Source: a virus
Lineage: Duplodnaviria; Heunggongvirae; Uroviricota; Caudoviricetes
DNA length: 64,000 nucleotides
Reading direction: 5' to 3' (one strand)
Virus record (IMG/VR): IMGVR_UViG_2639762987_000002
Under the pieces are notes generated by a model. The model saw nothing but the letters and a program-made list of their open reading frames with translations. It was not told the origin of the DNA and searched no databases. Of the stretch, positions 1,580-64,000 are shown in pieces. Numbering within the stretch: the stretch's first letter is position 1; every line of letters starts with the position of its first letter. Both the position numbers and the translations under genes were made by a program.

Positions 1580-1601
1580 CTAAACAACCATTTTTCACAA
1601 T

Positions 1602-1626
1602 GCCCGGCAACACGCTGGGCATTTTC
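1602..1626 (+). terminator. Rho-independent terminator of metG
   Basis: Hairpin gcccggcaacacgctgggc followed by atttt, 23 nt after the metG stop. Confidence 0.6.
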
Positions 1627-1740
1627 ATATAGACACAATCCCTCCTGATTTACACAAGCCCTAAAACAATTTGTTTTCTACCTTTTGTTGATTGAGATAA
1701 TAAGCCACATAAGAAAACAACTTGTTTTGGAGTAGTTGAA

Positions 1741-2040
1741 ATGTTGAACATTACCCAAGCCTACCAGGTGGCATTGATCAGTTCATCTCATACATCAGAG
1801 GAAGATGCTCGCCGATTCATGATCGCAAGCAATGAGCTGGATTGGGTTTCACAAATTGATGGCGGTTGTATTGTTCACGCCGGGTTACAGAATGATGTCT
1901 GGAAAGACGACTTGCGTCGATATGGTATATCCGAAGGCGCGATTGCTAACATTCAGAAAGTACTTGATGTAGGCTTTGACTCTGTACATTTTGATTGTGG
2001 TGCGCCGGTCGTTGAAGGGCTTGAGTGCTGGAACTGGTAA
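1741..2040 (+). CDS. hypothetical early protein (99 aa)
   Basis: ORF with GGAG-type RBS; motif-1 palindrome 13 nt upstream. Confidence 0.55.
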   Translation: MLNITQAYQVALISSSHTSEEDARRFMIASNELDWVSQIDGGCIVHAGLQNDVWKDDLRRYGISEGAIANIQKVLDVGFDSVHFDCGAPVVEGLECWNW

Positions 2041-2085
2041 CAGATATTAAAGCATTGGTAGTTTGTTTTTAGGATTATCAAAGAA

Positions 2086-2820
2086 ATGAAAAAGTTGAAA
2101 AGTTTAGAAATCCCTGGGACTGGTTATAAATTCTTTATGGACAACGCGGAGTGTGCGCCTAACGCGTTGGAAAAAATACAAAGTCTTATCAACAGCCTTA
2201 CTGAAGAAGCGAAAGAACTGAAGAGCGAGGCGACAAAGGACAATACAGCTAAAATCCAATGCTTAAATCTCGTTTCTTATTGTTTATATCAAGTGTCCAA
2301 GACACTGATTAAAGGCAATATCTATTACGACGATGAAGACACCTCGACACCTGAAGAAAAAGATAGCGATGAAGAACTCTATGAAGATATCTCTACCAGT
2401 GCGGGTCATGCTGCCTTCGATGCTATGGGTGAATCGTCAGGCATCAGATCGTTTGTTGAACAGAACAATTCGACAATAATGATTGAGTACTGTGAACAAA
2501 CAAGCTCCAAGGCCATACATGTTCTTCACGATGTTGCTGCAGGGGTTCGCTGTGAGGCTGAAGCGGTCAGAAAAGATGTATTTGGTGCAGACAGTAATAC
2601 CGTGAAAGCGTTCATCAACAGTGCTCTGCTAAATTCTTACTCAAACCTTATCGTCAATGCGGCACTATGCGCGAATTCAGGTGAAGAACACATTGTCATA
2701 ACTGAAACCAAACATGAGCATCAACAGTCACCAACCATAGAAGAGGTAACTGCATTGGCTATCAAACAGGCGAGTGAAATTAGTGATGAAATTCTCTCTC
2801 TGCTAAACAAAACTATGTAA
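2086..2820 (+). CDS. hypothetical acidic early protein (244 aa)
   Basis: ORF; Asp/Glu-rich stretch (YYDDEDTSTPEEKDSDEELYED). Confidence 0.55.
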   Translation: MKKLKSLEIPGTGYKFFMDNAECAPNALEKIQSLINSLTEEAKELKSEATKDNTAKIQCLNLVSYCLYQVSKTLIKGNIYYDDEDTSTPEEKDSDEELYEDISTSAGHAAFDAMGESSGIRSFVEQNNSTIMIEYCEQTSSKAIHVLHDVAAGVRCEAEAVRKDVFGADSNTVKAFINSALLNSYSNLIVNAALCANSGEEHIVITETKHEHQQSPTIEEVTALAIKQASEISDEILSLLNKTM

Positions 2821-2930: not shown

Positions 2931-3700
2931 TTGTTTATACAAATAAGAAAACAACTAAATAACAGATCAACGAAACGTCAACGCTTTCACCCGATTTGGT
3001 CTAAAAAATTGACGTTTTCACACATCACTTCTTATACCCGTAACTCTACGCAGCAGACAGCGCCACAGCGTCCAATTTTCACCACAGACGACCCAACACA
3101 CTACCAACAAAAACACACGCTCAAAATCGCTCCCGTTGCGTTACACAACCATATAAACAACTTATTTTCAGGCATAACAAAACAACTAAATAACACACAT
3201 GCCATTCCCAAAAACAACCAACCTCTTTATGGCAGGCTACCGAAAAGACCCACCTCTTCTCCCCAGGCTACCGGACAACCAACCTAACTTTCACAGGCAA
3301 TCCGAAAACATTCATACGCGCGATACCCACGACACGCCATTCCCCAAACAGCGAAGAAACACCAGAATCACTGAAACCCCAACGAAGCCTGTAACCGCAA
3401 GGATTCTCTCAATCCCAAAAGACACGAAACATAACAATCACGGGAAATGCCATTACCCAATACACGAATAACTACAAAAGCCTTTCACACACTCCAGACA
3501 AACAACTCAAACACAATAACGAAAGGAATCGCCCACCTGCCATTACTCCATACACGGAGAAGAACAATCACCAAAACGACGAGAACACCCCATAGAAGAA
3601 CCACCGCAAAACGAACGAAACCACATACACCGACAGAGAAAACAACACACCCAATTCACCAACAGAAATAGTCGCCGTATAGAACATTCTGGAAGGAGTG
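2931..3700. repeat. Non-coding CA-rich, G- and T-depleted region with four GCCATTMCC-type direct repeats
   Basis: Top strand roughly 40% A, 40% C, 10% G, 10% T by hand count of one 60-nt line; only low-complexity ORFs; repeats near 3200, 3337, 3448, 3539. Confidence 0.6.
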
Positions 3701-10671: not shown

Positions 10672-12231
10672 CTAATCTCGTTTCAGAACTCCAAAATCGA
10701 ATGCTCCATCAATAGGCAATACACCTTCTGCAAAGCCAGGTGTGGTGTCGATGATGTGTTTTCGCTCATAAGAGTGAGACAACAGGTATTTGTTGCTAAT
10801 GTCAATGAAATCAGTGATAAAACACACGTTTGCCTGATTTTTTTTGGCTCGTAAGCCACGACCGACACGCTGCCTCATTTCAACTTCTGCTTTCCCACCA
10901 CCAGCAAGAATGACCGCACCAACGCTTGGCACATCAACACCGACATCCAGAATAGTCGAGCCTATTAAAACATCTATTTCTCCAGACGCTAAACTGTTCA
11001 GCTTTGCTTGCCTTGTCGCCTGGTTAGATTCCCCATAGATGAAGTCAACTCTAAGGCCGGACTCTTTCATCATTTCCATCAGGATTTGCCCGTGGCGTTT
11101 AAGACGAACCAGAGTCATACAATTGAGAGAATGTTGCTTATAGAGCAATGCTTCGCGAACAATGGCCTCGTTACGTCCCAAATTATACACGATCCCCAAC
11201 TGATAAGCCTTTTGGTAGGCGGTGCTCATACCAACTCTAAAATTGAGGTGTTTGTTGGCAAGTTCGGCCTTGATTCTGGCCTCGTCTGGCTTGTAGGCAA
11301 CTTTATGATAAAGAAAGTACGGCTTTGCCAGAATGCCTCGATCAATCAGGTACTTTTCTGTGACTTTAATTTCAATTCGCCCGGCCACCGCCATCAGGCG
11401 CATGTTGGCTTCCGTCGAATCCTTCATGAACGGCGTGGCTGTAAGCGCCAGACGATAGTCTGCGTTCACACATAATCTGGCGATGTCATAGAAATTTGAG
11501 CCTGAAGACTCATGCGCCTCTTCCAGAATAAGAAGAGAGACACTTGAAAGGAAGCGTTTCACCAACTCCCGACGTTTGAGGTGGTAGCTTTTCTTATCTG
11601 GTGTTGCATCGCGTGGTGGTTCTTCGAGGAAACTTGCAAGAGTTTGAACTGTAGCGACGTTGATATGTCGTGATACCTGGAACTCACCCGAGCCAATGAC
11701 TCCAACCTTTTGGTCTTTTAACCACGGTTCGCCATTTTCGGCGCGGTAGTCGATGGATCTCTGGAAGTTTTCGGCCATTTGAAACATCAGAACAGAGCGG
11801 GTTGTTAAAAATAATGTCATTCGACCGATACGTGCAGCTGCTTTGCAGGCAACGTTAGATTTCCCGCCACCAGTAGCGATCTGCGCAATCATCATTCCCT
11901 CTCGAACCAGTGTTTCCACAGTCTGATCCTGATACGCATAATCAGGATTGTATGGGAATGGGTTAACCGCAGGATTTGGTTTACCAAGCGCCGGGGCTTT
12001 GTCTTTGCGGATATGAACACATTTGATGCCCGCCTTGTTCAAGTTCGCCGCTACAGGCTTGGCAAAGCCAGCAGGGAACGAGTTTTTACTCCAGTTGAAC
12101 ATCGTGCTTGTGCCCTTCCAGTCGCCAGTCTCGACTTCGTAGCTCAACATCTGTTGCACCATTTGCTTTACCTTGTCATCTGCGCCAGAAATAAGCGCAT
12201 TAACTGCGTTAGATACAATCCGAACAGTCAT
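10672..12231 (-). CDS. superfamily 2 DNA helicase (519 aa)
   Basis: Walker A TGGGKSN, motif II LILEEAHE (DEAH-like), C-terminal helicase region QRVGRGLR. Confidence 0.8.
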   Translation of the reverse strand: MTVRIVSNAVNALISGADDKVKQMVQQMLSYEVETGDWKGTSTMFNWSKNSFPAGFAKPVAANLNKAGIKCVHIRKDKAPALGKPNPAVNPFPYNPDYAYQDQTVETLVREGMMIAQIATGGGKSNVACKAAARIGRMTLFLTTRSVLMFQMAENFQRSIDYRAENGEPWLKDQKVGVIGSGEFQVSRHINVATVQTLASFLEEPPRDATPDKKSYHLKRRELVKRFLSSVSLLILEEAHESSGSNFYDIARLCVNADYRLALTATPFMKDSTEANMRLMAVAGRIEIKVTEKYLIDRGILAKPYFLYHKVAYKPDEARIKAELANKHLNFRVGMSTAYQKAYQLGIVYNLGRNEAIVREALLYKQHSLNCMTLVRLKRHGQILMEMMKESGLRVDFIYGESNQATRQAKLNSLASGEIDVLIGSTILDVGVDVPSVGAVILAGGGKAEVEMRQRVGRGLRAKKNQANVCFITDFIDISNKYLLSHSYERKHIIDTTPGFAEGVLPIDGAFDFGVLKRD

Positions 12232-12313
12232 AAACCTCTTTCCTTAGTGCCTTTTGTATGTTATTTGGCTATTATAATAAGTAAGTGATTACTTAGTGGA
12301 TTGTAGCAATAAA

Positions 12314-50054: not shown

Positions 50055-50060
50055 AAAATA

Positions 50061-50083
50061 AGCGTGGAGAACACCTCCACGCT
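50061..50083 (+). terminator. stem-loop, weak terminator or attenuator
   Basis: 8-bp stem gcgtggag/ctccacgc; no clean T-run. Confidence 0.35.
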
Positions 50084-50135
50084 TGATTCATTGGTGAAAC
50101 AACTTTTCTTTTGCCAAACCACAAAAGAAAAACAC

Positions 50136-51317: not shown

Positions 51318-51392
51318 CAATCACCTTTAAAATAAGTAGATGATTACTTATCTTTCTGTGAGAATACTTTCATCTGTTAGCTAGGAGTTGGT

Positions 51393-52169: not shown

Positions 52170-52224
52170 TCTCTCCGCGCGTCGTTTTTTACGCAAATAA
52201 CGATAGGTAAGTACAAGATTATTT

Positions 52225-54202: not shown

Positions 54203-54401
54203 ACGGGAGAAGGAAACGCTTCATGAAATCAGTAAGTGGCCGGAGTTCCCTGAGTACTGGAAGCCTAAAACGCGAGCTAAGTTAGAGCGTTTAGGGTTGG
54301 TTGCAAACGTTTCTGAAACGTGGTGTTCGGCCAACTACCAGTTAACTGATAAAGGGAAAGTATTGCTACAGCAATTAGTAGAATCAGGAGTGTTAAAATG
54401 A
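54186..54401 (+). CDS. hypothetical protein (71 aa)
   Basis: ORF with RBS ggagat. Confidence 0.45.
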   Translation: MIVLSKREKETLHEISKWPEFPEYWKPKTRAKLERLGLVANVSETWCSANYQLTDKGKVLLQQLVESGVLK

Positions 54402-54550
54402 TTCCATACATCTCATTAGCTTTTATGGGTGGCTTCCTTATCGGCTTCGGCATCTGTCGTGATTTAATTAAGCAGGAACTTAAAACCAAAACACTGTGCA
54501 TCGGAAAGCGTGTGTATCGGGTAGTTCATGAAACAAAGGTGAAAAAATGA
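54398..54550 (+). CDS. small membrane protein, paralogue of 54023..54202 (50 aa)
   Basis: Hand-translated MIPYISLAFMGGFLIGFGICRDLIKQELKTKTLCIGKRVYRVVHETKVKK. Confidence 0.4.
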   Translation: MIPYISLAFMGGFLIGFGICRDLIKQELKTKTLCIGKRVYRVVHETKVKK

Positions 54551-54837: not shown

Positions 54838-55615
54838 AAACATATTGATAAGTATTTACTTACTTATCTTTTGTGTATAAGATGACTTTGTTTTCGTTGA
54901 GACGCGACTGTTTGAACTTAAATACAAGTGCAAACGAAGAAGTCTATCTGGCAGTAGCCTAATAAGCCAAACACCAGCGAGGTCAGTTTCCAGCCTCGTT
55001 ACCGAAATGGGACACACTGAGCGAGTGTGATTGCAGAACGCAGGAGGGAACATTCATGTTCCCTCCGATGAAGTAACAGAATGGGCGGTTGGTATATTTT
55101 CAACTCCATATGACTCCCGGATTCTTAGCCACTGACCGCCCATCCTGTTACGTCATTTTGTTCAATTATGTCGTTTATACTGGGTTAAAAAGCGGCGACG
55201 TAGCCCGGCTGGTATGGTTAGCCAGCACACAACGTTGAGGCCATTACATTTTTATCAATTCTAAGGTTCTATTCACAGAGATACCGGCGAGCGTTGATAT
55301 GTAACATGTTGGGCAAACATTCAATCGGAGTAGTGGCCTCAACGTTGTGAAGACGGGATTGTTGTGTAGGTTTAACCACTGTTGCCATTGGTGCCTGTTT
55401 TCACAACAAATGATTCCATACATCACATTGTATAAATTACAAAGTAGGTGCTGTCCTCAGAAACATCATCTACTTAAAGATTTTGCCTTCTACTATTGAG
55501 CGAAGTCGAAAGCGTCTGGCACTAACGAAAAGTGCAAGTAGCGGTGCGTTTCCTGGCAGAAACTAAACCGTCGCGATTGGCACTGTTGAGTAATAAATAC
55601 TGGCAGTGCTGAATT

Positions 55616-55690
55616 GATGGTGTAGCTCAGCGGTAGAGCAGTTGGCTGTTAACCAACTGGTCGGTGGTTCGAATCCACCCACCATCGCCA
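55616..55690 (+). tRNA. tRNA-Asn (anticodon GTT)
   Basis: Hand-folded cloverleaf: acceptor gatggtg/caccatc, anticodon loop ctGTTaa, T-loop ttcgaat, encoded CCA. Confidence 0.85.
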
Positions 55691-55695
55691 ATTTA

Positions 55696-55782
55696 GGGGA
55701 GTTAGTCCGTAGAGGTAGCGGTGTAGACTGTAAATCTACTGTCATGGCGACTCGGGTGGTTCGACTCCATCACTCCCCACCA
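55696..55782 (+). tRNA. tRNA-Tyr (anticodon GTA), long variable arm
   Basis: Acceptor ggggagt/actcccc, anticodon stem-loop gtaga-ctGTAaa-tctac, 87 nt, encoded CCA. Confidence 0.8.
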
Positions 55783-55786
55783 AATT

Positions 55787-55862
55787 GCCGGTTTAGCTCA
55801 GTTGGTAGAGCGCCTGCCTTGTAAGCAGGATGTCAGCGGTTCGAGTCCGTTAACCGGCACCA
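55787..55862 (+). tRNA. tRNA-Thr (anticodon TGT)
   Basis: Acceptor gccggtt/aaccggc, D-arm gctcagttggtagagc, anticodon loop ctTGTaa, encoded CCA. Confidence 0.85.
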
Positions 55863-56079
55863 ACACAACAGGAAAGAGCATTGAAAACCGCCGAGACTGC
55901 CCTGTTTTAAGCGTAAGTCCGTGCAAACGTCATACAGTGCTCTTTTCGTTGTGGTTGATGCGCAGACTGATGCGCGGAAAGAAATGCCCCAGCGACACAC
56001 GAGGCGAGTTCACACACTGCAATGCAGTCAGTAGCCGGGGTCGCTAAGCCGGAGATCAGTACCGGTAACCACAACAATT

Positions 56080-56166
56080 GGAGAGTAGGGAGCATGGTGC
56101 TCAAGCGGTCTTGAAAACCGTCCCATTGTGCAAACGATGATGGTTCGATTCCATTACTCTCCGCCA
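56080..56166 (+). tRNA. tRNA-Ser (anticodon TGA), long variable arm
   Basis: Acceptor ggagagt/actctcc, anticodon loop ctTGAaa, 87 nt, encoded CCA. Confidence 0.8.
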
Positions 56167-56358: not shown

Positions 56359-57621
56359 TTACTTTGCATAGTCGCCCAATTTTAATATTTCGCGCTTATA
56401 TTCATTAACCATGCTACTGGATTCAGTATAAATTCGATTTAAAAGATTATCGTTATCTTTATTTTCATTTATCTTAATTAGTGCTAATTTATATTCATAG
56501 TCATCAAATGCCACAATTAAATGGTGGCCTGGGATTATATCTTCGTCACTCTTAAAGTATATATCTTCAAGTATGTAATCTAGTTGATTAGATTTTCTTT
56601 TCTCGATGTAATCTTCAGCCATAGCTATTACATCATTCCTGTCATTTAACCTGTTTTTTTCGGAAGGCACATCTTCGTAATGTTGCACGATTGAACAACC
56701 AATAAGGCGTGGGATGTAAACGTCAAAATGAGTAACTCTATCATTCGCGGTTTTAAGTAGTTCCTCAAAGTAGTTTCTTACATGTAAAGGCAACTTCTCA
56801 AAGTAATCATTAATTATAGGAGAACAAGGAGTTTTATAATTCATAAGAACCGACGGTACGAGCTTTGGGTGTCGAAACATCCAGTCCCTTTTAACGTCCG
56901 ATGGAACATAATAACTTTTAATGATATTATCAAAATAATTTATCATTCGAGATTTGAATATTTTGTTGAATCTAAGGTTTATGAATGTATCCAGATAAGG
57001 CATATTTGAATAAGCATCATCAAAAAATATTTCTTCATTGAAGAAATCATATTTATTTAATAAATAAAACAGTTTTTCCGAATTAATATGTTCACAATAA
57101 TCGATTTTTAATCCAAAGATAGCAATGATCAACTTCATCTGAGGTGGGATTTTAAAAATTAATTGTGACACATACGCTCTTTTTTCCTTGAGACATTCCC
57201 CATCAATATAAAATGAACCATCCACATACTCAAATATATTAATAATATGCTTCACATACTGTATTACCTCATGCTGTCTTACCAATGGATAATATAGTCT
57301 ATGTAACTCATCGCTGTTTAAATTAATTTTGTGTTTATCGATAATTTGTTTTGCAAGAAGACATAACTCATCATGTTGATTTAATAAGGAATCAAACCAT
57401 TGTTTAAATGCACTCTTTCGCATTTCGAACAATGATTCAGTTGTTAATTGAAGGGCTGAAAAAGCCGCTTTTGCACTTTTTCTCGCTTCGTAGGCATTCC
57501 ATGCTGTTGCTATAAAAGCAAATGCTGTAGCCAATGTTCCAACAGTTTGACCATTTAAAACAACCCAATCCCAAAAAATGACGGTGAGCAGTAGTATAAT
57601 AATGAAAATTAAAAAAGGCAT
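56359..57621 (-). CDS. AT-rich membrane-anchored protein of unknown function (420 aa)
   Basis: Visibly AT-rich versus neighbours; N-terminal hydrophobic helices (FLIFIIILLLTVIFWDWVV, TLATAFAFIATAW); no catalytic motif recognised. Confidence 0.7.
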   Translation of the reverse strand: MPFLIFIIILLLTVIFWDWVVLNGQTVGTLATAFAFIATAWNAYEARKSAKAAFSALQLTTESLFEMRKSAFKQWFDSLLNQHDELCLLAKQIIDKHKINLNSDELHRLYYPLVRQHEVIQYVKHIINIFEYVDGSFYIDGECLKEKRAYVSQLIFKIPPQMKLIIAIFGLKIDYCEHINSEKLFYLLNKYDFFNEEIFFDDAYSNMPYLDTFINLRFNKIFKSRMINYFDNIIKSYYVPSDVKRDWMFRHPKLVPSVLMNYKTPCSPIINDYFEKLPLHVRNYFEELLKTANDRVTHFDVYIPRLIGCSIVQHYEDVPSEKNRLNDRNDVIAMAEDYIEKRKSNQLDYILEDIYFKSDEDIIPGHHLIVAFDDYEYKLALIKINENKDNDNLLNRIYTESSSMVNEYKREILKLGDYAK

Positions 57622-57795: not shown

Positions 57796-58041
57796 ATGAC
57801 GATCACTATCTACGGACGAGATAACTGCTCATACTGCAAACGTGCGGTCGAGCTGGCGAAGCAACTAAAGGGACATGGCTACGGTGATTATGAGTACATC
57901 GACATCACCACTGCCGGTATCGACAAGGAAAAACTAAGTGAAATTGTTGGTAAACCGGTAGAGACTATCCCCCAAGTGCTGATCGATGGCCAACCGATTG
58001 GCGGATACACAGAACTGGCTGCATACGTCAGCACCCTCTGA
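57796..58041 (+). CDS. grxA: glutaredoxin 1-like protein (81 aa)
   Basis: CSYC active site and GKPVETIPQVLIDGQPIGGYTELAAYV, closely resembling E. coli GrxA from memory. Confidence 0.8.
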   Translation: MTITIYGRDNCSYCKRAVELAKQLKGHGYGDYEYIDITTAGIDKEKLSEIVGKPVETIPQVLIDGQPIGGYTELAAYVSTL

Positions 58042-58070: not shown

Positions 58071-58251
58071 TCCCACCAAACTCACTCCCGTTTCCCTTAA
58101 AATTCAAAAAACAACGTCAAAATGATTCCATACCTACTATGTATGGAATCATTGCTGAAAATGAGTTACTTTTACTCTTGATCCTATAAGAATCTATGCC
58201 TAATATACTGTTTACTTATACAGTGCATCGGCGTAACTCGGTGATTGTCAT

Positions 58252-59355
58252 ATGAAAAATAGCTTTGACAGAGCACGCGCTGCGGAGAACACCTCAAAAG
58301 AGGCGATAGAGTATCTCGAAAGAGCATCTCAAATGCAGGCCGTTATGATCTCGCAGGTTAGCAATGACATGAGATTCTCGGACGCATTCATGTTATTCAC
58401 TCGCTTATCTCTGCTGATAACCAGACGTCGGCCAGAGATCGCTGTTCATTGTATTTTGATACATGTTTTGCCGCACATTGCCGATGTAAAAGTAAGTGAC
58501 ATTAATAGGTTCATGGTGAACCAACTGGTCAACCCACTAATACTGGATGGCAAAATTGTTATGGGCCGCCGCGTTTTCTCTCTGATGAAGCAGTTCCTTA
58601 GCTGGTGCGCCTTCCAGGGGATGATAGACGTGTCACCGTTAAACGATATGTCACTAAACAAAGTTGCCGGTGGCGCAAAGCCCACACCTCGCGAGCGGAA
58701 GCTGACCGACGCAGAGGTATGGGTGTTCTGGAATATATGGGACTACTTCAATGTGTGCGCTGGTACAAAATGGGCGGCCAGGCTGTGTCTTGTATCCGCA
58801 AGACGACCTGACGAAGTACTGCGGGCTAAAAAAAGTGAGTTCAATCTTAAGCGTGGGGTTTGGAATCAAGGCAAGAGGAACAAATCTGCCCGTGAGCATT
58901 CGCTGCCTTTAAGCACATTAATGCGCACATGTATTGAAGAGTTGTTCGAATACGGTAAAGGCAGCCAGTGGCTCGTGCCTTCGAATAAAAAAATCGGGAA
59001 AGACCTTCCTATGTCTAAAGTGGCAATAGCCCAGGCATTACGTCGTATCCTGGAACGACCAGAACTGATGGAGCTTGAGCCATTTACACCCCGAGACTTG
59101 CGCCGTACTGCGCGTAGTTACTTCCCAGCATTAGGCATAAGCCAGGAGGTATCACGTAAAATCATGAACCACAGTCTTGAGGGGATAGATCGAGTCTACG
59201 ACCGGCACGATTATATGGACGAGATGCGAGACGCCTTAGAAAGTTTCTCGACGTACATCGCATCAATCGTAGAGCAACCGGATTTAGACGAAATTGACCA
59301 CAAATTTAAGGGAGATCGTCTATCAACAGAGCTTATTCGTGTAAATTTTTCATAG
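58252..59355 (+). CDS. int: tyrosine recombinase / integrase (367 aa)
   Basis: C-terminal catalytic region with conserved R (PRDLRRTARS), HxxR-like and Y (VYDRHDY) residues. Confidence 0.8.
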   Translation: MKNSFDRARAAENTSKEAIEYLERASQMQAVMISQVSNDMRFSDAFMLFTRLSLLITRRRPEIAVHCILIHVLPHIADVKVSDINRFMVNQLVNPLILDGKIVMGRRVFSLMKQFLSWCAFQGMIDVSPLNDMSLNKVAGGAKPTPRERKLTDAEVWVFWNIWDYFNVCAGTKWAARLCLVSARRPDEVLRAKKSEFNLKRGVWNQGKRNKSAREHSLPLSTLMRTCIEELFEYGKGSQWLVPSNKKIGKDLPMSKVAIAQALRRILERPELMELEPFTPRDLRRTARSYFPALGISQEVSRKIMNHSLEGIDRVYDRHDYMDEMRDALESFSTYIASIVEQPDLDEIDHKFKGDRLSTELIRVNFS

Positions 59356-59736
59356 AGACTTTATGGCCTCAACAACCTTTTGTGATGCGCCTTTCTCTTT
59401 ACCGAATCGCTCGTTATATGCAGCAAGAACCTGTTTTTCGTCCTCGTTAAGAGGAGCAGTGCCTTCTTTGTATAAAAATGCTGCGAGTTCGGGTTGGCGT
59501 TCTTCCAGCACCATCATCATAAGACGACTTGGCTCAATACCCAGTGCCAGCGCCAGCGGACGAACCTTATCGATAGGCAAAGGAATTTTGCCGCTTTTAA
59601 TTAAAGAAAGGTTGTTGGCGTTTTTATACCCAATTGTTTTGGCTATCTGGGCCTGGCTCATAGGTGAGGATTCAATCAACCCTGCGATAAAAGCAGCGTA
59701 GCGACTTTCTATAAATTCAATCTTGTTATCAGACAT
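59350..59736 (-). CDS. XRE-family HTH transcriptional regulator, repressor-like (128 aa)
   Basis: HTH SQAQIAKTIGYKNANNLSLIKSGK; divergent from the downstream + strand genes. Confidence 0.7.
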   Translation of the reverse strand: MSDNKIEFIESRYAAFIAGLIESSPMSQAQIAKTIGYKNANNLSLIKSGKIPLPIDKVRPLALALGIEPSRLMMMVLEERQPELAAFLYKEGTAPLNEDEKQVLAAYNERFGKEKGASQKVVEAIKSL

Positions 59737-59987
59737 GGTTACAACCTTTGCGCGTTCAATTCTCTCTGGTAAGTGCTTACCGATATTACATCAAAGGTTA
59801 GGGTTGTAAAGCTATTATCATTTTTTTCGATAGGCACTTAAAAGACCGGTTAAAGGCCATTGCACGGAGAAAAATTAGCCCAAAATAGGTAAGAAAATTA
59901 ACTTGCATATGATATGAATGTATTCAGTATTGATACAAATTTTAGTAGTATTCCTTACCATAGTATAAGTTAGAATGGATTGATTGA

Positions 59988-60200
59988 ATGAACACCACTA
60001 TTTCCAGCCTAATCGCTCTTGAGATCGGACACGTACAGAAATTAGCTGATGAGTGTGTAGCTGACATCCTCACCGATCTACCGAATGAGCAGATTCAGGT
60101 TGGTGTGAATGACACAACTGGCTTTATATTCGAACTTAACAACAAACGCTTCACGCTTCTCAATACCGGCTCCGAGTCTTTAGCCGTCAGAATCTGTTAA
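59988..60200 (+). CDS. hypothetical protein (70 aa)
   Basis: ORF. Confidence 0.4.
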   Translation: MNTTISSLIALEIGHVQKLADECVADILTDLPNEQIQVGVNDTTGFIFELNNKRFTLLNTGSESLAVRIC

Positions 60201-60298: not shown

Positions 60299-62407
60299 AT
60301 GTCTAAAAAACGTTCCATCAAAGAGGTTCAGGACTTCCGTGACAGTGTAAAACGAGTAGTCGCTCTCCTTTCAGGTAAAAACATCCCTGTTGCAGAACGA
60401 GGAGACGACGCTTATGTACGCTATAACGATGATGGAGAGCCAATTCTCGTAAACATCCCATCAATCCCGGATAACGCAACACCGGCATTGATGAATGCTG
60501 TGCGCGGATTTCTCGATCATGAGGTTGCTCACATTTTGTTTACCGATATTCGTGTGTCCAACAAAATGAGAGAAAAAGAACGCGTTCCTTCTTGGTCGCT
60601 ATGGAATGCCTTAGAAGACGTGTTCATCGAGCGAAAAATGGGGCAGGTCTTTAACGGAACAAGACGTAATCTGATGGCAACTCAGCGCCTTATAATCGAA
60701 AAAGTCTTTAAACCAAAGGCTTCAGAGGCTATTGCTTATTGTGGCAAAGATCAGCGCGCGCTTTTTCTAAACTTCTTTCTCTGTCCGGTTGTAAGAGCCT
60801 GGGATGGCCAAGCACCGTTCGTAGATTTCATGGATGAATACTGGCCTGTCATTGAGAAACCAATTTCATTATTAAAAGAACATGGTATCGATGTGGCCGT
60901 GCGTAACATGTCTTGCACCGAGGATTGTGTAAAGGTGGCTGCGACCATAGCTAAGATCCTCAAAGACACTGAAAGTGAAAGCAAAGGTAAGGAGTCAGCT
61001 CCGGGAAAAACTTCCGATCCTTCAGACGCTGACCAGACGGATGCCTCTGGAGAAAACAGTGAAGACAACGAAGATCATGAGACACCCTCAGCGTTAGATA
61101 ATCACAAATCTATCAAATCAGAATCACATAGTAGGTACAAACATGATAATAACGACAGTGATGATTCAGATAATTCTGAATCATCAGAAACAATATTCGA
61201 TGATACAGAAAATGATAAAGAGGTATCAGATTCTGATGCTTCTGATAACGCGGCGTCAGAATCATTAACCGCTGACCACGAAAAAAGAAAAACGACAGAA
61301 GACGGCTCTTCAGATATCCCAACTCCGTCAAAAATGAGTCTGGAAGAGGCTTTAGAGGAGTTGGATAGCATGGAAGATGAAGTCGGAGGCATGACAGAAG
61401 ATGCGCTATCCGAAACGATTAAAAGCGAGTTAACAGAAAGCTCGAAAAGCGAATACAGGCCATACAATCGCTCATACGACTTCATCGGCTCGATTGATCA
61501 GGCAGAAGCCCATATCAAACGGCTTATTAAAACATTCTCCGATATTGATTTGGGAGGATATCCAATCAGCCGCTATCGCATCGTTCCTGAAGGCAACCAG
61601 CTCTTCGACAAATATATTGAAAAGCACCTTTCGTCAGGTGTTTCGTCGACGCTGGCAAAAGACCTGGAACGTGCAATAGCAAGCAGAAACAGAGTTCAGT
61701 TTATACCTGGCCAGCGTCGGGGGCGCATTCATGGTTCAAGTATCTACAGATTAACAATGAATGATGATCGCGTGTTTCGTAAAAAAGAAGAATCTAAAGC
61801 CGTTAACGCCTGTGTTCAACAAGTGATTGATTTATCGGGTTCAATGAGTGGCGAAACGATAAAACTAGCTCTTGCAAGTGCATATACCATCGCCGATGCA
61901 CTTGATCGAATAAATGTTCCCAACATTATCACCGGCTTCACTACATTTGGCAGTCATATGGCAGCAGGAGAACTTAAGGCTATCAAATATGAGTTCTCTC
62001 GCTTTGAATCTTTAATGCTACCTATCATCAAAAATTGGAATGAAAAAGCAAATTCTCGCGAAGTTCGCTCACGTATGGGGTGCGTAGGCTACACATTCCC
62101 ACTTCTTAATAACGTGGATGGTGAAAGCATAGCCAGCCTTGCATCGTTATTTTCCGGTCGCATGGAGGACAGGAAGATCATGCTTGTTCTGAGTGATGGC
62201 GCGCCGTGGGCTGTTGGGAGAGGTTTTGACGCTCATTTGCGTTCAGTTGCGAAGCAAATTGAAACGCAGACTGATATTGATTTGATGGCAATTGGCATCA
62301 TGACTGACGCACCGGAGAGATTTTACTCAAATCATGCCCTGGTAACGAGCGTTGATAGTCTTGGTTCATCTGTAGTTACTGAACTATCTCGTATCATTTT
62401 AAAGTGA
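60299..62407 (+). CDS. vWA-domain protein, CobT-like (702 aa)
   Basis: C-terminal MIDAS motif VIDLSGSMSG; central Asp/Ser/Glu-rich low-complexity linker; motif-1 upstream. Confidence 0.7.
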   Translation: MSKKRSIKEVQDFRDSVKRVVALLSGKNIPVAERGDDAYVRYNDDGEPILVNIPSIPDNATPALMNAVRGFLDHEVAHILFTDIRVSNKMREKERVPSWSLWNALEDVFIERKMGQVFNGTRRNLMATQRLIIEKVFKPKASEAIAYCGKDQRALFLNFFLCPVVRAWDGQAPFVDFMDEYWPVIEKPISLLKEHGIDVAVRNMSCTEDCVKVAATIAKILKDTESESKGKESAPGKTSDPSDADQTDASGENSEDNEDHETPSALDNHKSIKSESHSRYKHDNNDSDDSDNSESSETIFDDTENDKEVSDSDASDNAASESLTADHEKRKTTEDGSSDIPTPSKMSLEEALEELDSMEDEVGGMTEDALSETIKSELTESSKSEYRPYNRSYDFIGSIDQAEAHIKRLIKTFSDIDLGGYPISRYRIVPEGNQLFDKYIEKHLSSGVSSTLAKDLERAIASRNRVQFIPGQRRGRIHGSSIYRLTMNDDRVFRKKEESKAVNACVQQVIDLSGSMSGETIKLALASAYTIADALDRINVPNIITGFTTFGSHMAAGELKAIKYEFSRFESLMLPIIKNWNEKANSREVRSRMGCVGYTFPLLNNVDGESIASLASLFSGRMEDRKIMLVLSDGAPWAVGRGFDAHLRSVAKQIETQTDIDLMAIGIMTDAPERFYSNHALVTSVDSLGSSVVTELSRIILK

Positions 62408-62502
62408 ACAAAACAGCCTTAACGATAAGTAACCACTTACGATAGATAATGATATATTTATATAAGAAGTTGAACGCTCATTAGAAAACAAAGGAAAAAC
62501 GC

Positions 62503-63738
62503 ATGACTACTACTGCACTGCAAAATGAAAAAAATCCTTCTGATTACCTTGTTTGCAAGTGGTGCGGAAAATCATTTCACTATTTTAAGTCCCATGTAGC
62601 CAATGGTAATTGCGAGGGCATTCCTGAGTCAGTAAAAGATGCCGATCCTGACACCGTACTGAAAATGTACACAACACAGTTTCCAGATGAGCCAACGCTA
62701 TCGAAAAAGGCACTTGATGCAATTCAAGCTAAACGTGCCGAGCAAAAAAGCGAAATGGCCAAATCATCTGGCGTGACCAGTAGCCCAGGCTACACAGGCA
62801 CAGTTGAGTACAAGACAGATCTGGTCGCAGCTCACGAACTGCTAAATGTAACGGTGAAAGAACTCGGAACAAAACGTGGGACGCCGCTCATGGTTAGCGT
62901 CAACGTCAATACGCCGTTTCCAGAGTTCGTTCCAGAAGTGAAGAAGGGATACGTATATGGCGACTTCGAACTGATCAAAGACATTTTCATGATGCTTGAA
63001 CTTGGCATACCTGGCTATTTGTGGGGTCATGCAGGAACAGGCAAATCTTCATTGCCTACACAACTATGTGCTTTGCTCAATCGTCCGTTAATCCGTGCCC
63101 AACATACAGCATCAATGGAAGAGGCTCATGTTACGGGACAAATTCTGGCGCGTGATGGCTCTACGTATTTCGAGCCTGGCTTGCTTGCGCTCGCAATGAA
63201 GCATGGCTGGGTTTACCTCGCGGATGAATACGACTTTGCGTTTCCACAGATTCTTGGCGTGTATCAGCCAGTGCTGGAAGGTGAAGCGTTGGTCATCAAA
63301 GAGGCGACTCCAGAATGGCGTCGCATTACTCCGCATGAACGGTTTGCTTTCATTGGCACTGGCAACACGAACGGATCTGGTGATGAAACCGGCTTGTACC
63401 AGGGTACAAACATCCAGAACGCCGCGAACTTTTCGCGTTTTGGCATCGTTTCGAATGTGAAATACATGAGCAAAGAGGCAGAGATCAACATGTTGATAAA
63501 TGCCGGTATCGTGGATGAATACGCAGAAAAGATGGTTAAGTTTGCCGGTATCGTTCGCGATGGATACGAAGAACACCTTATCAGTCAGCCAATTGGCCCT
63601 CGTGAACTTTTGTTGTCGGCCAAGATTGGAATGATGCGAGGCGACTTTGTGACAGGTATTGAGCGTTCTTTCATTAACAAACTCCCTTCAGCTTCTGCAC
63701 AAGCGGCTCGTGAAGTTGTTCAAAAAATATTTGGTTAA
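62503..63738 (+). CDS. AAA+ ATPase, CobS/MoxR-like (411 aa)
   Basis: Walker A GHAGTGKSS, Walker B VYLADEYD; paired with the upstream vWA protein. Confidence 0.7.
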   Translation: MTTTALQNEKNPSDYLVCKWCGKSFHYFKSHVANGNCEGIPESVKDADPDTVLKMYTTQFPDEPTLSKKALDAIQAKRAEQKSEMAKSSGVTSSPGYTGTVEYKTDLVAAHELLNVTVKELGTKRGTPLMVSVNVNTPFPEFVPEVKKGYVYGDFELIKDIFMMLELGIPGYLWGHAGTGKSSLPTQLCALLNRPLIRAQHTASMEEAHVTGQILARDGSTYFEPGLLALAMKHGWVYLADEYDFAFPQILGVYQPVLEGEALVIKEATPEWRRITPHERFAFIGTGNTNGSGDETGLYQGTNIQNAANFSRFGIVSNVKYMSKEAEINMLINAGIVDEYAEKMVKFAGIVRDGYEEHLISQPIGPRELLLSAKIGMMRGDFVTGIERSFINKLPSASAQAAREVVQKIFG

Positions 63739-63740
63739 TC

Positions 63741-63944
63741 GTGCGTAAAGGATGTTTCGGCTCTCTTATCGCTGCTTCTGAAACTGGTAAGGCTTGTCTG
63801 GTGTGTCCAGACAAGCCCGATTGTCACCAATCAGCAAAAGAAGTTGCGATTTCGATGCATGGGAAGTTCGTAGGCTTCCCCAATGACAAAATCAAAAAAA
63901 CCAGAAAGGTAAAAACACATGAAGGCACTGATGGTTCGAACTGA
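63741..63944 (+). CDS. small Cys-containing hypothetical protein (67 aa)
   Basis: ORF 2 nt after the AAA gene stop. Confidence 0.35.
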   Translation: MRKGCFGSLIAASETGKACLVCPDKPDCHQSAKEVAISMHGKFVGFPNDKIKKTRKVKTHEGTDGSN

Positions 63945-64000
63945 CTTCTCACTTGGGGAGTCGGCTCTAAAAGCAGAAAACGCGGTGAAGATTGCCAGAG

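What the first reader, a model, noticed from the sequence alone, without database searches (positions are those of the whole stretch)
1580..64000. Element combines plasmid partition, own replication genes, integrase and repressor, yet abuts chromosomal metG
The element encodes a ParA/ParG partition cassette, DnaB-like helicase, primase and ligase, which are features of phage-plasmids, and also a tyrosine integrase with divergent XRE repressor. Its left boundary is at most ~85 bp from the metG terminator. The integrase is internal rather than at a prophage end, so it may act as a resolvase or serve an integration site beyond the window.
Basis: inference. Interest (0 to 1): 0.6.

Follow-up and report, generated by a model that had tools for sequence, protein, structure and literature searches.

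The report
Phage-plasmid carrying its own metG
This window is part of an already described ~108-kb circular phage-plasmid of E. coli (SSU5/pHCM2 type); the metG at its edge is the plasmid's own cargo gene, not the chromosome, and its "integrase" most likely acts like P1's Cre on a lox-like site beside its gene.

Summary
The whole window is collinear at 97-99% identity with circular ~105-112-kb E. coli plasmids and with phage records (CMS-2020a, Cyrano). It is about 80% identical to phage SSU5. In those plasmids metG is internal: apbC, a UmuD-like gene, thyA, DHFR, nrdAB and RepB lie further left. Homology to the chromosome covers only the apbC and metG coding sequences. Phage-plasmid-borne metG is already published. 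So there is no chromosome junction, no misassembly and no att-flanked prophage.

The integrase+HTH DNA occurs 254 times in 5,426 complete E. coli genomes, always on plasmids. About 100 bp upstream of int lies a perfect 13-7-13 palindrome. Its arms are invariant and its spacer is hypervariable across about 109 relatives. It is followed by a conserved LexA box.

Recombinase homologues at 44-48% identity carry a covarying version of the same palindrome. Some are solitary genes on 437-722-kb replicons with no phage genes and no HTH.

Best reading: a Cre/loxP-like multimer-resolution or cyclisation module, SOS-controlled in this lineage. This part is inferred, not shown.

The HTH gene is convergent with int, not divergent. 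"ParG" is unsupported.

The parts
1..1579 (+). 3' 526 codons of a plasmid-borne metG (methionine-tRNA ligase). The gene runs off the left end of the window. It is cargo of the phage-plasmid.
   Evidence: Open frame. 97% identical to metG of ~108-kb plasmids versus 93.7% to MG1655. 99.6% aa identity to the plasmid allele and 98.7% to K-12. Homology to the chromosome stops at the stop codon.
1600..1627 (+). Imperfect hairpin plus T-run after metG (terminator-like).
   Evidence: Read from the sequence. The consensus terminator scan did not call it.
2950..3680 (+). About 700 bp of A+C-rich, ORF-poor DNA with degenerate direct repeats. Function unknown.
   Evidence: Skew profile, repeats, no CDS annotated here in related plasmids.
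10672..12231 (-). DEAD/DEAH (UvsW-like) helicase.
   Evidence: PGAP annotation of relatives, NCBIfam helicase hits, Cyrano annotation 'UvsW helicase'.
12296..14324 (+). Two ParB-N-terminal-domain proteins and an ABC-type ATPase, upstream of the packaging genes.
   Evidence: PHROG 723, NCBIfam parB_part, annotation of relatives.
16315..19172 (+). Terminase large subunit (16315-17571) and portal (17598-19172). This is the start of the SSU5-like virion module.
   Evidence: PGAP annotation of the collinear plasmid. 81.7% nt identity to SSU5 positions 1-10505.
26092..41571 (+). Tail module: tape measure (26092-30684), tip/host-specificity protein (33223-37953) and tail fibre (38047-41571).
   Evidence: Match to Cyrano and SSU5 tail genes, annotation, 3 x 120-bp repeat inside the fibre gene.
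42847..44129 (+). Lysis cassette: holin, endolysin, Rz.
   Evidence: Cyrano annotation of the collinear region and the ORF list.
45800..46827 (+). Small Walker-type ParA ATPase (45800-46468) plus a 119-aa partner of unknown family (46468-46827).
   Evidence: The same pair (52% and 44% aa identity) lies next to an Int homologue and a Rep_3 gene on a 34-kb Photorhabdus plasmid.
46880..47647 (-). PD-T4-3-type (GIY-YIG) anti-phage defence gene.
   Evidence: PADLOC 1.3e-23. PGAP calls it 'LEM-3-like GIY-YIG'.
48714..54026 (+). Replication genes: DnaB-like helicase (48714-50054), primase (50064-51317), ATP-dependent DNA ligase (52704-54026).
54395..54416 (+). Isolated copy of the site arm (AAAATGATTCCATACATCTCAT), overlapping the start codon of a 50-aa ORF.
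55407..55428 (+). Second isolated arm copy (AAATGATTCCATACATCACAT), in non-coding DNA about 200 bp upstream of the tRNA genes.
55616..56166 (+). tRNA cluster: Asn, Tyr, Thr, Ser.
   Evidence: ARAGORN. Rfam confirms three of them. PGAP annotates them in a relative.
56359..57621 (-). Low-GC (36%) 420-aa gene of unknown function. Variable cargo.
   Evidence: Composition, PHROG 18168 unknown, no Pfam or PADLOC hit, absent or replaced in many relatives.
57796..58041 (+). Glutaredoxin gene, followed by its terminator at 58046-58065.
   Evidence: Pfam Glutaredoxin, PGAP GrxA, terminator scan.
58121..58153 (.). Perfect 13-7-13 palindrome AATGATTCCATAC-CTACTAT-GTATGGAATCATT. Candidate core recombination site (lox-like) of the adjacent recombinase.
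   Evidence: The full palindrome occurs once in the window, 0 expected. Arms invariant and spacer variable in relatives. A homologous, covarying palindrome lies upstream of Int homologues at 44-60% identity, including solitary genes on megaplasmids. Shuffled controls never exceed 10/13.
58178..58225 (+). Putative int promoter (-35 TTGATC, 17 bp, -10 TAATAT) overlapped by a LexA box, TACTGTTTACTTATACAGTG.
   Evidence: Positions and 16/20 match to the SOS-box consensus. A box matching CTG[T/A]-N8-[T/A]CAG (canonical CTGT-N8-ACAG in 110 of 112 hits) lies 52-54 bp from the site in about 108 of 112 such hits among relatives, with a variable interior. The CTGT-N8-ACAG motif alone is not rare: 2 found versus 0.85 expected in the window.
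58252..59355 (+). Tyrosine recombinase (367 aa). Two-domain, lambda-Int-core-like fold, with no arm-binding domain.
   Evidence: R185, K211, R284, H307, Y316. AlphaFold model pLDDT 86. Foldseek best match lambda Int 75-356, TM 0.76-0.78.
59350..59736 (-). HTH regulator (128 aa), convergent with int. Probable lysogeny repressor.
   Evidence: Pfam HTH_19 (weak) and PHROG 8. Cyrano annotation 'putative repressor'.
59737..59987 (.). Divergent control region between the HTH gene and a 70-aa ORF. It holds four GGTAAG/CTTACC hexamers, including GGTAAG-TG-CTTACC at 59768-59781. Candidate operators.
   Evidence: 4 copies versus 0.12 expected. Promoter-like site on the minus strand at 59810-59783.
59988..60200 (+). 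70-aa ORF transcribed divergently from the HTH gene (Cro-like position).
   Evidence: Translation. Annotated in relatives.
60299..63738 (+). CobT-like VWA protein (60299-62407) and CobS/MoxR-like AAA ATPase (62503-63738). Conserved SSU5-group genes.
   Evidence: NCBIfam, annotation, present in SSU5.

Best explanation
The window is about 60% of an SSU5/pHCM2-type phage-plasmid: a temperate siphovirus that lives as a circular ~108-kb low-copy plasmid in E. coli and Shigella.

metG, together with apbC just beyond the left end of the window, is a 3.3-kb block of chromosomal origin that this plasmid lineage carries as cargo. It is not flanking chromosome.

The plasmid initiator (RepB), RecA, nrdAB, thyA and most of dnaE lie in the part of the circle outside the window.

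The internal tyrosine recombinase is not a chromosomal integrase. With the 13-7-13 palindrome ~100 bp upstream of its gene it forms a self-contained Cre/loxP-like module. Two recombinase monomers would bind the 13-bp arms and strands would be exchanged across the 7-bp spacer. This would convert plasmid multimers to monomers and, by analogy with P1 Cre, may circularise injected terminally redundant DNA.

In this lineage its promoter is overlapped by a LexA box, so expression should rise during the SOS response.

The convergent HTH gene with its own divergent control region is the likely lysogeny repressor.

What is shown: the identity of the element, the plasmid location of metG, the absence of chromosomal copies, and the existence, conservation and covariation of the site and the LexA box. 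What is inferred: recombinase-site binding, the resolution/cyclisation role, LexA control and the repressor role.
For: Identity of the element:
- The window is collinear on one strand with Escherichia phage CMS-2020a CP053388.1: 1580-26000 at 98.5%, 26000-39508 at 96.8%, 40039-64000 at 97.0%.
- It is also collinear with the circular plasmid NZ_CP070135.1, at 99.4% over 40000-64000.
- It is ~80% identical to SSU5.
- Cyrano, a 96-98% relative, is a plasmid at ~5.5 copies per cell, makes siphovirus virions and is induced by ciprofloxacin (PMC9928086).

metG as cargo:
- In circular plasmids metG is flanked on the far side by apbC, a UmuD-like gene, dam, rnhA, DHFR, thyA, nrdAB and RepB.
- 183 E. 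coli genomes carry the full 6-kb left end. The 15 best hits are all 105-112-kb plasmids.
- 208 PLSDB plasmids carry this metG.
- Homology to MG1655 is limited to the apbC CDS through the metG stop codon.
- The encoded MetG is 98.7% identical to K-12 MetG.
- Phage-plasmid-encoded metG in Shigella/E. coli is described by Tam et al., medRxiv 10.1101/2024.10.27.24316207, as cited in PMC12452169. The pWPMR2 clade appears in bioRxiv 10.1101/2025.09.12.675607.

Not an integrase:
- The int+HTH DNA occurs at 254 places in 252 complete genomes, 0 of them on chromosomes.
- Close relatives sit on ~108-kb contigs in Yersinia pestis and Kluyvera and on a 58-kb contig in Buttiauxella.
- IMG/VR contigs that carry it are all 114 kb or shorter.
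- The model has no beta-sheet arm-binding domain, and no excisionase was seen.

The site:
- The full palindrome occurs once in the window, with 0 expected.
- In 109 loci the inner 10 bp of each arm were fixed by the search pattern and are therefore uninformative. The informative observations are at least 10 different spacers and outer arm bases that covary, AAT/ATT versus TGT/ACA.
- Arm invariance is shown independently by the alignment of loci found through the protein.
- Homologues at 44-60% identity have the same 13-7-13 layout 17-142 bp upstream of their genes. In these the arms change from GATTCCATAC to GACTCCAGAC, mirrored on both sides.
- Four of these are solitary recombinase genes amid ordinary genes: three on 437-722-kb replicons or contigs (Rahnella, Pantoea, Erwinia) and one on a 99.6-kb Ewingella contig. 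None has a neighbouring HTH gene, which ties the site to the recombinase.
- On a 34-kb Photorhabdus plasmid the module sits between the ParA pair and a Rep_3 gene, in the plasmid's maintenance region.
- A hypervariable spacer is expected if the only recombination partner is another copy of the same site. It is not expected for an attP that must match a conserved chromosomal attB (inference).

LexA box.

The HTH protein has its own candidate operators, different from the site arms.

Phage SSU5, which was proposed as a component of biocontrol phage cocktails, lacks window 55692-60200, that is site, int, HTH and orf70.
Against: - There is no experimental evidence for recombination at the palindrome.
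- In phage-plasmids, and in the 34-kb plasmid, the HTH gene always accompanies int. An operator role for the palindrome is therefore not fully excluded there.
- Extra isolated arm copies occur at 54398 and 55410, with a further copy antisense in dnaE just past the window end and a degenerate one inside int. A simple lox model does not explain them.
- The homology break between the window and Cyrano lies ~18 bp left of the arm, not in the spacer. The variable left flank is therefore not direct evidence of crossover at the site.
- SOS control is unusual for a resolvase, and the megaplasmid homologues lack the LexA box.
- The window is a fragment, so circularity is inferred from near-identical complete records, not seen directly.
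Confidence: 0.85

Rival explanations
1. This is an integrated prophage or island whose left end abuts the chromosomal metG gene. The internal integrase would serve an att site beyond the window.
For: Sequence homologous to the chromosome ends exactly at the metG stop codon. A tyrosine recombinase and a repressor-like gene are present.
Against: - The metG allele is the plasmid one: 97% versus 93.7% identity.
- The same metG-to-phage-gene junction is present in more than 180 circular plasmids, with plasmid genes on the other side of metG/apbC.
- The int region is never chromosomal in 5,426 complete E. coli genomes.
- No direct repeats or att-like structure are needed to explain the junction.
Confidence: 0.02
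2. The contig is a misassembly that joins chromosomal metG to an episome.
For: Every E. coli genome has a 90-95% identical chromosomal metG that could confuse an assembler.
Against: The junction and the diverged plasmid-type metG allele recur in hundreds of independent complete assemblies, including long-read-closed circular plasmids. apbC-metG is embedded between plasmid genes on both sides.
Confidence: 0.01
3. The recombinase is a facultative integrase. The element is usually a plasmid but can integrate at a chromosomal or plasmid target that matches the 7-bp spacer.
For: - The fold is closest to lambda Int core domains, and the nearest phage homologues at ~25-28% identity are true integrases.
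- SOS-regulated expression would suit excision or integration switching.
- Cointegrate-size plasmids (231-252 kb) carry an int relative.
- A few relatives sit on 0.2-0.9-Mb contigs whose wider context could not be seen.
Against: - 0 of 254 copies are chromosomal.
- There is no arm-binding domain and no excisionase.
- The symmetric site has a spacer that differs between close relatives.
- Solitary homologues with the same site type lie on megaplasmids, with no mobile element around them.
Confidence: 0.07
4. The 13-7-13 palindrome and the dispersed single arms are operators of a regulator (the HTH protein, or Int acting as a repressor), analogous to P1 C1's dispersed asymmetric operators. On this view they are not a crossover site.
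For: - Single arm copies sit at conserved positions: at a start codon, upstream of the tRNAs, and antisense in dnaE. Synonymous positions are conserved in the dnaE copy.
- The palindrome lies directly upstream of the int promoter.
- HTH and int co-occur in all phage-plasmid loci examined.
Against: - The palindrome persists, with compensatory arm changes, upstream of solitary recombinase genes that have no HTH neighbour.
- The HTH control region has a different repeated hexamer.
- 13-bp arms around a 7-bp spacer is the canonical tyrosine-recombinase core geometry (established knowledge: loxP 13-8-13, FRT 13-8-13).
- Autoregulation by Int bound at its own site would be compatible with both readings.
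Confidence: 0.1

Closest known systems
SSU5 / pHCM2 / pWPMR2-type phage-plasmids (SSU5_pHCM2 group of the SSU5 supergroup; E. coli examples Cyrano/pLF82 and CMS-2020a)
   Same: Gene order and sequence are shared: 96-99% nt identity to Cyrano, CMS-2020a and ~108-kb E. coli plasmids, and ~80% to SSU5. Shared content includes the siphovirus virion module, ParA, DnaB-like helicase, primase, ligase, tRNAs and CobT/CobS-like genes. Plasmid-borne metG matches what is described for pWPMR2-like elements.
   Different: There are only strain-level differences in cargo. This copy has a 420-aa low-GC gene and a PD-T4-3 defence gene. Cyrano instead has CYRAN_41/43 and toxin-antitoxin genes. SSU5 itself lacks the 4.5-kb segment with tRNA-Tyr/Thr/Ser, grx, site, int, HTH and orf70.
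Phage P1 Cre/loxP
   Same: Both are phage-plasmids with an internal tyrosine recombinase whose simple palindromic target (13-bp arms around a 7-8-bp spacer) lies just upstream of the recombinase gene. The expected roles are also the same: multimer resolution and cyclisation of injected DNA. The layout is shown. P1 biology is from established knowledge and PMC7969092.
   Different: There is no detectable sequence relationship to Cre: phmmer against the PDB found nothing at E<0.01, and Foldseek to Cre gave only E~0.1. The spacer is 7 bp rather than 8. A LexA box sits on the promoter. Extra single arms lie kilobases away. No activity has been shown.
Lambda Int (core-binding and catalytic domains)
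   Same: It is the best structural match (TM 0.76-0.78 to residues 75-356). The catalytic R-K-(H/R)xxR-H-Y set is conserved.
   Different: There is no N-terminal arm-binding beta domain, no arm-type sites, no Xis and no chromosomal attB. Sequence identity is about 16%.
Plasmid-encoded multimer-resolution tyrosine recombinases (F ResD/rfsF, Salmonella virulence-plasmid Rsd/crs)
   Same: A solitary recombinase gene with its target site lies beside it in the maintenance region of large low-copy plasmids. That is the context of the Rahnella, Pantoea, Erwinia and Photorhabdus homologues.
   Different: Homology to ResD or Rsd was not tested here. The comparison rests on my own knowledge of those systems.
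Integron integrase IntI with attI
   Same: Both have a tyrosine-recombinase gene whose promoter carries a LexA box, a recombination site immediately upstream, and variable genes on the far side of the site (LexA control of intI: PMC3108266, listed).
   Different: There are no attC-like second sites and no cassette structure. The homology break lies ~18 bp outside the site, not within it. Only a generic fold similarity to the Vibrio integron integrase was found (PDB 2a3v, E~1e-4).

Membership tests
SSU5/pHCM2-type phage-plasmid | Nucleotide-level synteny with the SSU5 virion, replication and accessory modules. | tested here: met
   ~80-82% identity to SSU5 over the packaging, head, tail and replication regions. 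96-99% identity to Cyrano, CMS-2020a and ~108-kb E. coli plasmids over the whole window.
SSU5/pHCM2-type phage-plasmid | Extrachromosomal circular replicon of ~100-115 kb with a plasmid initiator and partition genes. | tested here: inconclusive
   The window is a fragment, so its own topology cannot be seen. Near-identical complete records are circular and 105-112 kb, and carry a RepB-family initiator outside the window. ParA lies inside the window.
SSU5/pHCM2-type phage-plasmid | Produces virions and is maintained as a plasmid. | not testable with these tools
   This has been shown for the 96-98% relative Cyrano (PMC9928086), but not for this copy.
Integrated prophage next to chromosomal metG | Chromosomal genes on the far side of metG, and an empty site in other genomes. 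| tested here: not met
   In all close relatives the far side of metG/apbC holds plasmid genes. Chromosomal metG is followed by yehF, with no homology beyond the stop codon.
Integrated prophage next to chromosomal metG | The element is found in chromosomes, flanked by att repeats, with the integrase at an end. | tested here: not met
   0 of 254 int-region copies are chromosomal. int lies internally, between the tRNA/grx genes and the CobT-like gene.
Simple (Cre/lox-type) tyrosine site-specific recombination system | Tyrosine recombinase with the catalytic Arg-Lys-His/Arg-Arg-His-Tyr set and a two-domain fold. | tested here: met
   R185, R284 and Y316 are invariant. K211 and H307 are conserved in at least 90% of 47 homologues. 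The model has pLDDT 86 and matches lambda Int, XerH, IntI and Cre folds.
Simple (Cre/lox-type) tyrosine site-specific recombination system | Target of two inverted ~11-14-bp binding arms around a 6-8-bp spacer, evolving together with the recombinase. | tested here: met
   The site at 58121-58153 is 13-7-13. The arms are conserved and the spacer is variable. Compensatory arm changes occur in homologues at 44-48% identity. Shuffled controls never exceed 10/13.
Simple (Cre/lox-type) tyrosine site-specific recombination system | Recombination between two sites without accessory arm-type sites or host-specific factors. | not testable with these tools
   This needs an in vivo or in vitro recombination assay.
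Cre family (sequence homologues of P1 Cre) | Detectable sequence homology to Cre. | tested here: not met
   phmmer against all PDB chains found no hit at E<0.01. Foldseek to Cre gave E~0.1 and 11% identity.
Type Ib ParA/ParG partition cassette | Small Walker-type ParA ATPase. | tested here: met
   222 aa, with Pfam MipZ/AAA_31/CbiA, PHROG 164 and NCBIfam ParA_partition 1.9e-33, the last below its curated cut-off.
Type Ib ParA/ParG partition cassette | ParG-type ribbon-helix-helix centromere-binding partner. | tested here: not met
   The 119-aa partner has no Pfam hit, falls in PHROG 5111 (unknown), and has no significant PDB hit. Sequence-only tests cannot exclude a remote RHH fold.
Type Ib ParA/ParG partition cassette | Repeated centromere (parS/parH) next to the operon. 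| tested here: inconclusive
   No convincing repeat array was found at 45500-48800. There is only a 16-bp perfect inverted repeat at 46829-46867 between convergent genes.
LexA (SOS) regulon | CTGT-N8-ACAG box overlapping a promoter and conserved in relatives. | tested here: met
   58206-25 matches the consensus at 16/20 and starts at the end of the -10 element. A box matching CTG[T/A]-N8-[T/A]CAG (canonical CTGT-N8-ACAG in 110 of 112 hits) is kept at a fixed distance in about 108 of 112 such hits among relatives, with interior variation. LexA binding was not tested.

The most novel reading that the evidence does not exclude
The recombinase and its 13-7-13 palindrome would be an undescribed, self-contained Cre/lox-like system. 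It is shared by SSU5-type phage-plasmids and by enterobacterial megaplasmids, with at least two natural arm specificities (GATTCCATAC and GACTCCAGAC). In the phage-plasmid lineage it would have been placed under direct LexA control. There it is also accompanied by single, inward-pointing arm copies kilobases away, whose role is unknown. Possibilities include Int-dependent regulation and long-range architecture of the lysogeny/replication region.
Probability: 0.35. Interest if true: 0.45.

Novelty: already known. Interest (0 to 1): 0.25.

Why it matters
For the scan, this removes a false lead. A housekeeping gene next to phage genes looked like a chromosome/prophage junction but is a cargo gene inside a known phage-plasmid.

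The element matters clinically. SSU5-type phage-plasmids are common in E. coli and Shigella. According to PMC12452169, their extra metG copy has been linked to antimicrobial survival in epidemic Shigella.

The one part that may be new is modest. If the recombinase and site work as proposed, they explain how these low-copy phage-plasmids avoid multimer-driven loss without integrating. They would also offer another orthogonal lox-like recombination pair, and an example of SOS-controlled plasmid resolution.

Tried and rejected
- Rfam on the whole window returned only three of the tRNAs. No known ncRNA explains the non-coding stretches.
- A sequence search of Int against the PDB returned nothing, so structure prediction and Foldseek were used instead.
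- ParG was tested for the 119-aa ParA partner with Pfam, PHROGs, NCBIfam and PDB. There was no support. No centromere repeats were found.
- I first took the hypervariable left flank of the palindrome (22 unrelated flank clusters versus 4 on the right) as a footprint of site-specific exchange. I rejected this because the window/Cyrano breakpoint lies ~18 bp outside the arm, and because grx is conserved further left with cargo inserted in between.
- I asked whether the isolated arm copies could recombine with each other, shufflon-like. The 7 bp following the arm are not shared within genomes in most lineages, so this is unlikely.
- An integron-like cassette model was rejected: there is no second full site in the window.
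- I could not read Tam et al. (medRxiv) or the 2026 heteroresistance preprint, which are not held. The metG literature claim therefore rests on the citing paper.
- The profile-based locus search in IMG/VR returned only close relatives at 82% identity or more.
- The 0.2-0.9-Mb contigs that carry the 86% Citrobacter-type homologue were not displayed. Their wider context is unknown.
- Literature searches found no paper in the held library that links SSU5, pHCM2 or phage-plasmids to a resolution site or to LexA control of int. That is not proof of novelty.

Full report
**1. What the window is**

ORF listing, composition and tRNA scans show a gene-dense, mostly plus-strand phage-like region that follows a metG fragment. 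Megablast settles the identity.

- The first 6 kb match 183 E. coli genomes over their full length at 95-99%. The 15 best hits are all on 105-112-kb plasmid records. All 5,426 genomes also have a 90-95% partial match, which is their chromosomal metG.
- Window 1580-26000 matches "Escherichia phage CMS-2020a" CP053388.1 at 98.5% over 100% of its length. It also matches Cyrano, PhiR41_1, Klebsiella phage-plasmids (~79%) and Salmonella phage SSU5 (81.7%).
- Window 26000-40000 and 40000-64000 continue on the same strand of CP053388.1, at 51092-37581 and 36041-11888.
- Window 40000-64000 matches the circular plasmid NZ_CP070135.1 at 99.4%.

The window is therefore one contiguous arc, about 60%, of an SSU5/pHCM2-type phage-plasmid. 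This group is well described (PMC7969092; bioRxiv 10.1101/2025.09.12.675607). Cyrano, the copy in E. coli LF82, is a plasmid at ~5.5 copies per cell. It makes siphovirus virions and is induced by ciprofloxacin (PMC9928086).

**2. metG is plasmid cargo, not chromosome**

- In the circular plasmids NZ_CP082122.1 and NZ_CP070135.1, metG (2,034 bp) lies next to a divergently oriented apbC. Beyond that come a UmuD/HumD-like S24 peptidase and then dam, rnhA, DHFR, thyA, nrdAB and a RepB-family initiator.
- Against MG1655, homology in the plasmid runs exactly from the apbC (mrp) coding sequence to the metG stop codon and no further. Identity is 88.2% over 3.3 kb, and window 1-1579 is 93.7% identical.
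- Along the block, metG is 89-98% identical, apbC is 69-89% and the intergenic promoter region is ~60%. MetG protein is 98.7% identical to K-12's and ApbC is 94%.
- The window's metG is 97% identical to the plasmid allele, and its reading frame is open to the window edge.
- 208 PLSDB plasmids carry this metG, and 203 of them are typed non-mobilizable.
- Phage-plasmid-encoded metG, and its link to antimicrobial survival in epidemic Shigella sonnei, has been reported by Tam et al. I could read this only through the citing paper PMC12452169.

Position ~1580 is therefore the right edge of an old 3.3-kb capture of chromosomal origin inside the plasmid. It is neither an element boundary nor a misassembly.

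**3. Check of the listed genes**

The following are confirmed by Pfam, PHROGs and NCBIfam and by the annotation of relatives:
- ParA-like ATPase (45800-46468).
- DnaB-like helicase (48714-50054).
- Primase (50064-51317).
- ATP-dependent ligase (52704-54026).
- Tyrosine recombinase (58252-59355).
- HTH regulator (59350-59736, minus strand).

Two details are wrong. First, the ParA partner (46468-46827) shows no ParG/RHH signal. Second, the HTH gene is convergent with int, with 3' ends overlapping by 6 bp. Its divergent partner is a 70-aa ORF (59988-60200) across a 251-bp control region. That region holds four GGTAAG/CTTACC hexamers against 0.12 expected.

**4. What the integrase does**

*Never chromosomal.* The 1.6-kb int+HTH segment occurs at 254 places in 252 of 5,426 complete E. 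coli genomes. All are on plasmids and none is on a chromosome. Relatives at 85-86% aa identity sit on ~108-kb contigs in Yersinia pestis and Kluyvera and on a 58-kb Buttiauxella contig. IMG/VR contigs that carry it are all 114 kb or shorter.

*A lox-like site.* Ninety-eight bp upstream of the int ATG lies a perfect palindrome, AATGATTCCATAC-CTACTAT-GTATGGAATCATT, at 58121-58153. The full palindrome occurs once in the window, with 0 expected. The evidence from relatives is as follows.
- In an alignment with Y. pestis, Kluyvera and Buttiauxella the two 13-bp arms are invariant, the 7-bp centre varies, and the sequence to the left is unrelated.
- Across 109 loci there are at least 10 different spacers. 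The outer arm bases covary, AAT/ATT versus TGT/ACA. The inner 10 bp of each arm were fixed by the search pattern and are uninformative there.
- Recombinase homologues at only 44-60% identity have the same 13-7-13 layout 17-142 bp upstream of their genes. Examples are TGTGACTCCAGAC-TTAATAG-GTCTGGAGTCACA in Ewingella and near-identical sites in Rahnella, Pantoea, Erwinia and Providencia.
- In those sites two arm positions have changed, and the change is mirrored in both arms. A Photorhabdus site is intermediate between the two arm classes.
- Shuffled controls never exceed 10/13.

*Genomic context of the distant homologues.* Four of these homologues are solitary recombinase genes among ordinary metabolic genes. 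They lie on a 722-kb Rahnella replicon, a 507-kb Pantoea replicon, a 437-kb Erwinia contig and a 99.6-kb Ewingella contig. They have no phage genes and no HTH neighbour. On a 34-kb Photorhabdus plasmid the module sits between a homologous ParA pair and a Rep_3 initiator. This ties the palindrome to the recombinase and places the module among plasmid-maintenance functions.

*The protein.* The catalytic residues are kept. The AlphaFold model (pLDDT 86) has an all-helical N-terminal half and a catalytic domain. Its best match is lambda Int residues 75-356 (TM 0.76-0.78). There is no beta-sheet arm-binding domain.

*Conclusion.* A symmetric site with a freely drifting spacer is what one expects if the partner is always another copy of the same site, as in multimer resolution or cyclisation. 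It is not expected of an attP tied to a conserved attB; this step is inference. I conclude, at roughly 60% confidence for this step, that the module works like P1 Cre/loxP.

**5. SOS control**

A sigma-70-like promoter lies between the site and int: -35 TTGATC at 58178-83, a 17-bp spacer, and -10 TAATAT at 58201-06. It is immediately overlapped by TACTGTTTACTTATACAGTG (58206-25), which matches the LexA-box consensus at 16/20.

The bare motif CTGT-N8-ACAG is not rare by itself: 2 were found in the window against 0.85 expected. However, a box matching CTG[T/A]-N8-[T/A]CAG (canonical CTGT-N8-ACAG in 110 of 112 hits) is retained 52-54 bp from the site in about 108 of 112 such hits among related loci, while its interior varies. 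The distant megaplasmid homologues lack it. LexA repression of int in the phage-plasmid lineage is therefore a reasonable but untested inference. It fits the ciprofloxacin inducibility of Cyrano.

**6. Unexplained points and caveats**

- *Isolated arm copies.* Single copies of the arm plus ATC (ATGATTCCATACATC) occur at 54398, where the copy overlaps the start codon of a 50-aa ORF, and at 55410, upstream of the tRNAs. In relatives there is also a copy antisense inside dnaE, ~6.05 kb right of the site and just beyond the window end. A degenerate copy lies inside int. All point towards the full site. They are conserved at these positions in diverged relatives, including at synonymous codon positions in dnaE. 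The 7 bp after the arm are generally not shared within a genome, so mutual recombination is unlikely. No such copies were seen within ±4 kb in the GACTCCAGAC-class phage-plasmids or within ±4-10 kb in the megaplasmid loci.
- *Variable left flank.* The flank immediately left of the site is a cargo hot spot. grx is conserved 0.08-2.5 kb away, with different inserts in between. But the window/Cyrano breakpoint is ~18 bp outside the arm, so this variability is not evidence of crossover at the site.
- *SSU5 lacks the module.* Phage SSU5 lacks window 55692-60200, which holds tRNA-Tyr/Thr/Ser, the 420-aa gene, grx, the site, int, HTH and orf70. This is consistent with a dispensable lysogeny/maintenance cassette, but the evidence is only correlative.

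**7. Verdict**

The recombinase-site-LexA module is, as far as the held literature shows, not described, but it is an ordinary kind of system. Interest is low to modest.

Noticed in passing
window 54395-54416 and 55407-55428; also L002 27317 (dnaE, antisense, just beyond the window end): Isolated copies of the 13-bp site arm, extended by ATC(T/A)CAT. They are conserved at the same positions in diverged relatives and all point towards the full palindrome. One overlaps the start codon of a 50-aa ORF. The dnaE copy keeps its synonymous positions fixed. Role unknown.
   Followed up: partly
window ~2950-3680: About 700 bp of A+C-rich DNA (GC skew down to -0.54, AT skew up to +0.62) with degenerate direct repeats. 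These include TGCCATTACCCAATACAC-like units at 3199, 3335, 3448 and 3538, and 3 x 31 nt at 3212-3303. It lies in a 1.5-kb stretch where related plasmids have no annotated gene.
   Followed up: partly
window 46880-47647 (-): A GIY-YIG protein matches the PD-T4-3 anti-phage defence family (PADLOC 1.3e-23). It sits between the ParA pair and the replication genes. This system is reported for E. coli/Shigella SSU5-like phage-plasmids in bioRxiv 10.1101/2025.09.12.675607.
   Followed up: partly
window 59737-59987: The divergent control region between the HTH gene and a 70-aa ORF holds four GGTAAG/CTTACC hexamers (0.12 expected). One pair forms the tight palindrome GGTAAG-TG-CTTACC at 59768-59781. 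These are candidate repressor operators.
   Followed up: partly
window 55692-60200, compared with SSU5 (L220 6601-6664): Phage SSU5 lacks this whole 4.5-kb segment: three tRNAs, the 420-aa gene, grx, the palindrome, int, HTH and orf70. In SSU5 tRNA-Asn is followed almost directly by the CobT-like gene.
   Followed up: yes
window 56359-57621 (-): A 420-aa gene at 36% GC with no Pfam or PADLOC match (PHROG 18168, unknown function). It lies in a slot between tRNA-Ser and grx that holds different genes in different relatives.
   Followed up: partly
window 56169-56246 and 56208-56347: A 20-nt inverted repeat lies right after tRNA-Ser. A ~140-bp non-coding block ending in a strong terminator-like hairpin is conserved at 81-99% in relatives whose flanks differ.
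   Followed up: no
window 57730-57755: A perfect 12-2-12 palindrome, AAGATAGGTATG-CA-CATACCTATCTT, lies ~40 bp upstream of the grx start. It shares the octamer CATACCTA with the inner arm and spacer of the int-proximal palindrome.
   Followed up: no
window 40765-41119: Three tandem copies of a 120-bp unit (73% matches) lie inside the tail-fibre gene.
   Followed up: no
L005 / NZ_CP070135.1 62383-66695 (outside the window): In the closest plasmid relative, the phage-plasmid's own dnaE is split by an HNH endonuclease gene. Cyrano and the Citrobacter relative have an intact 3.5-kb dnaE.
   Followed up: no
L218 (Photorhabdus asymbiotica 33.8-kb plasmid CP177137.1): A small plasmid with no phage genes in the 6-kb stretch examined carries homologues of the window's ParA (52% aa), its 119-aa partner (44%), Int (48%) and the HTH protein (50%), next to a Rep_3 initiator. 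This suggests the four genes travel together as a plasmid-maintenance set.
   Followed up: partly
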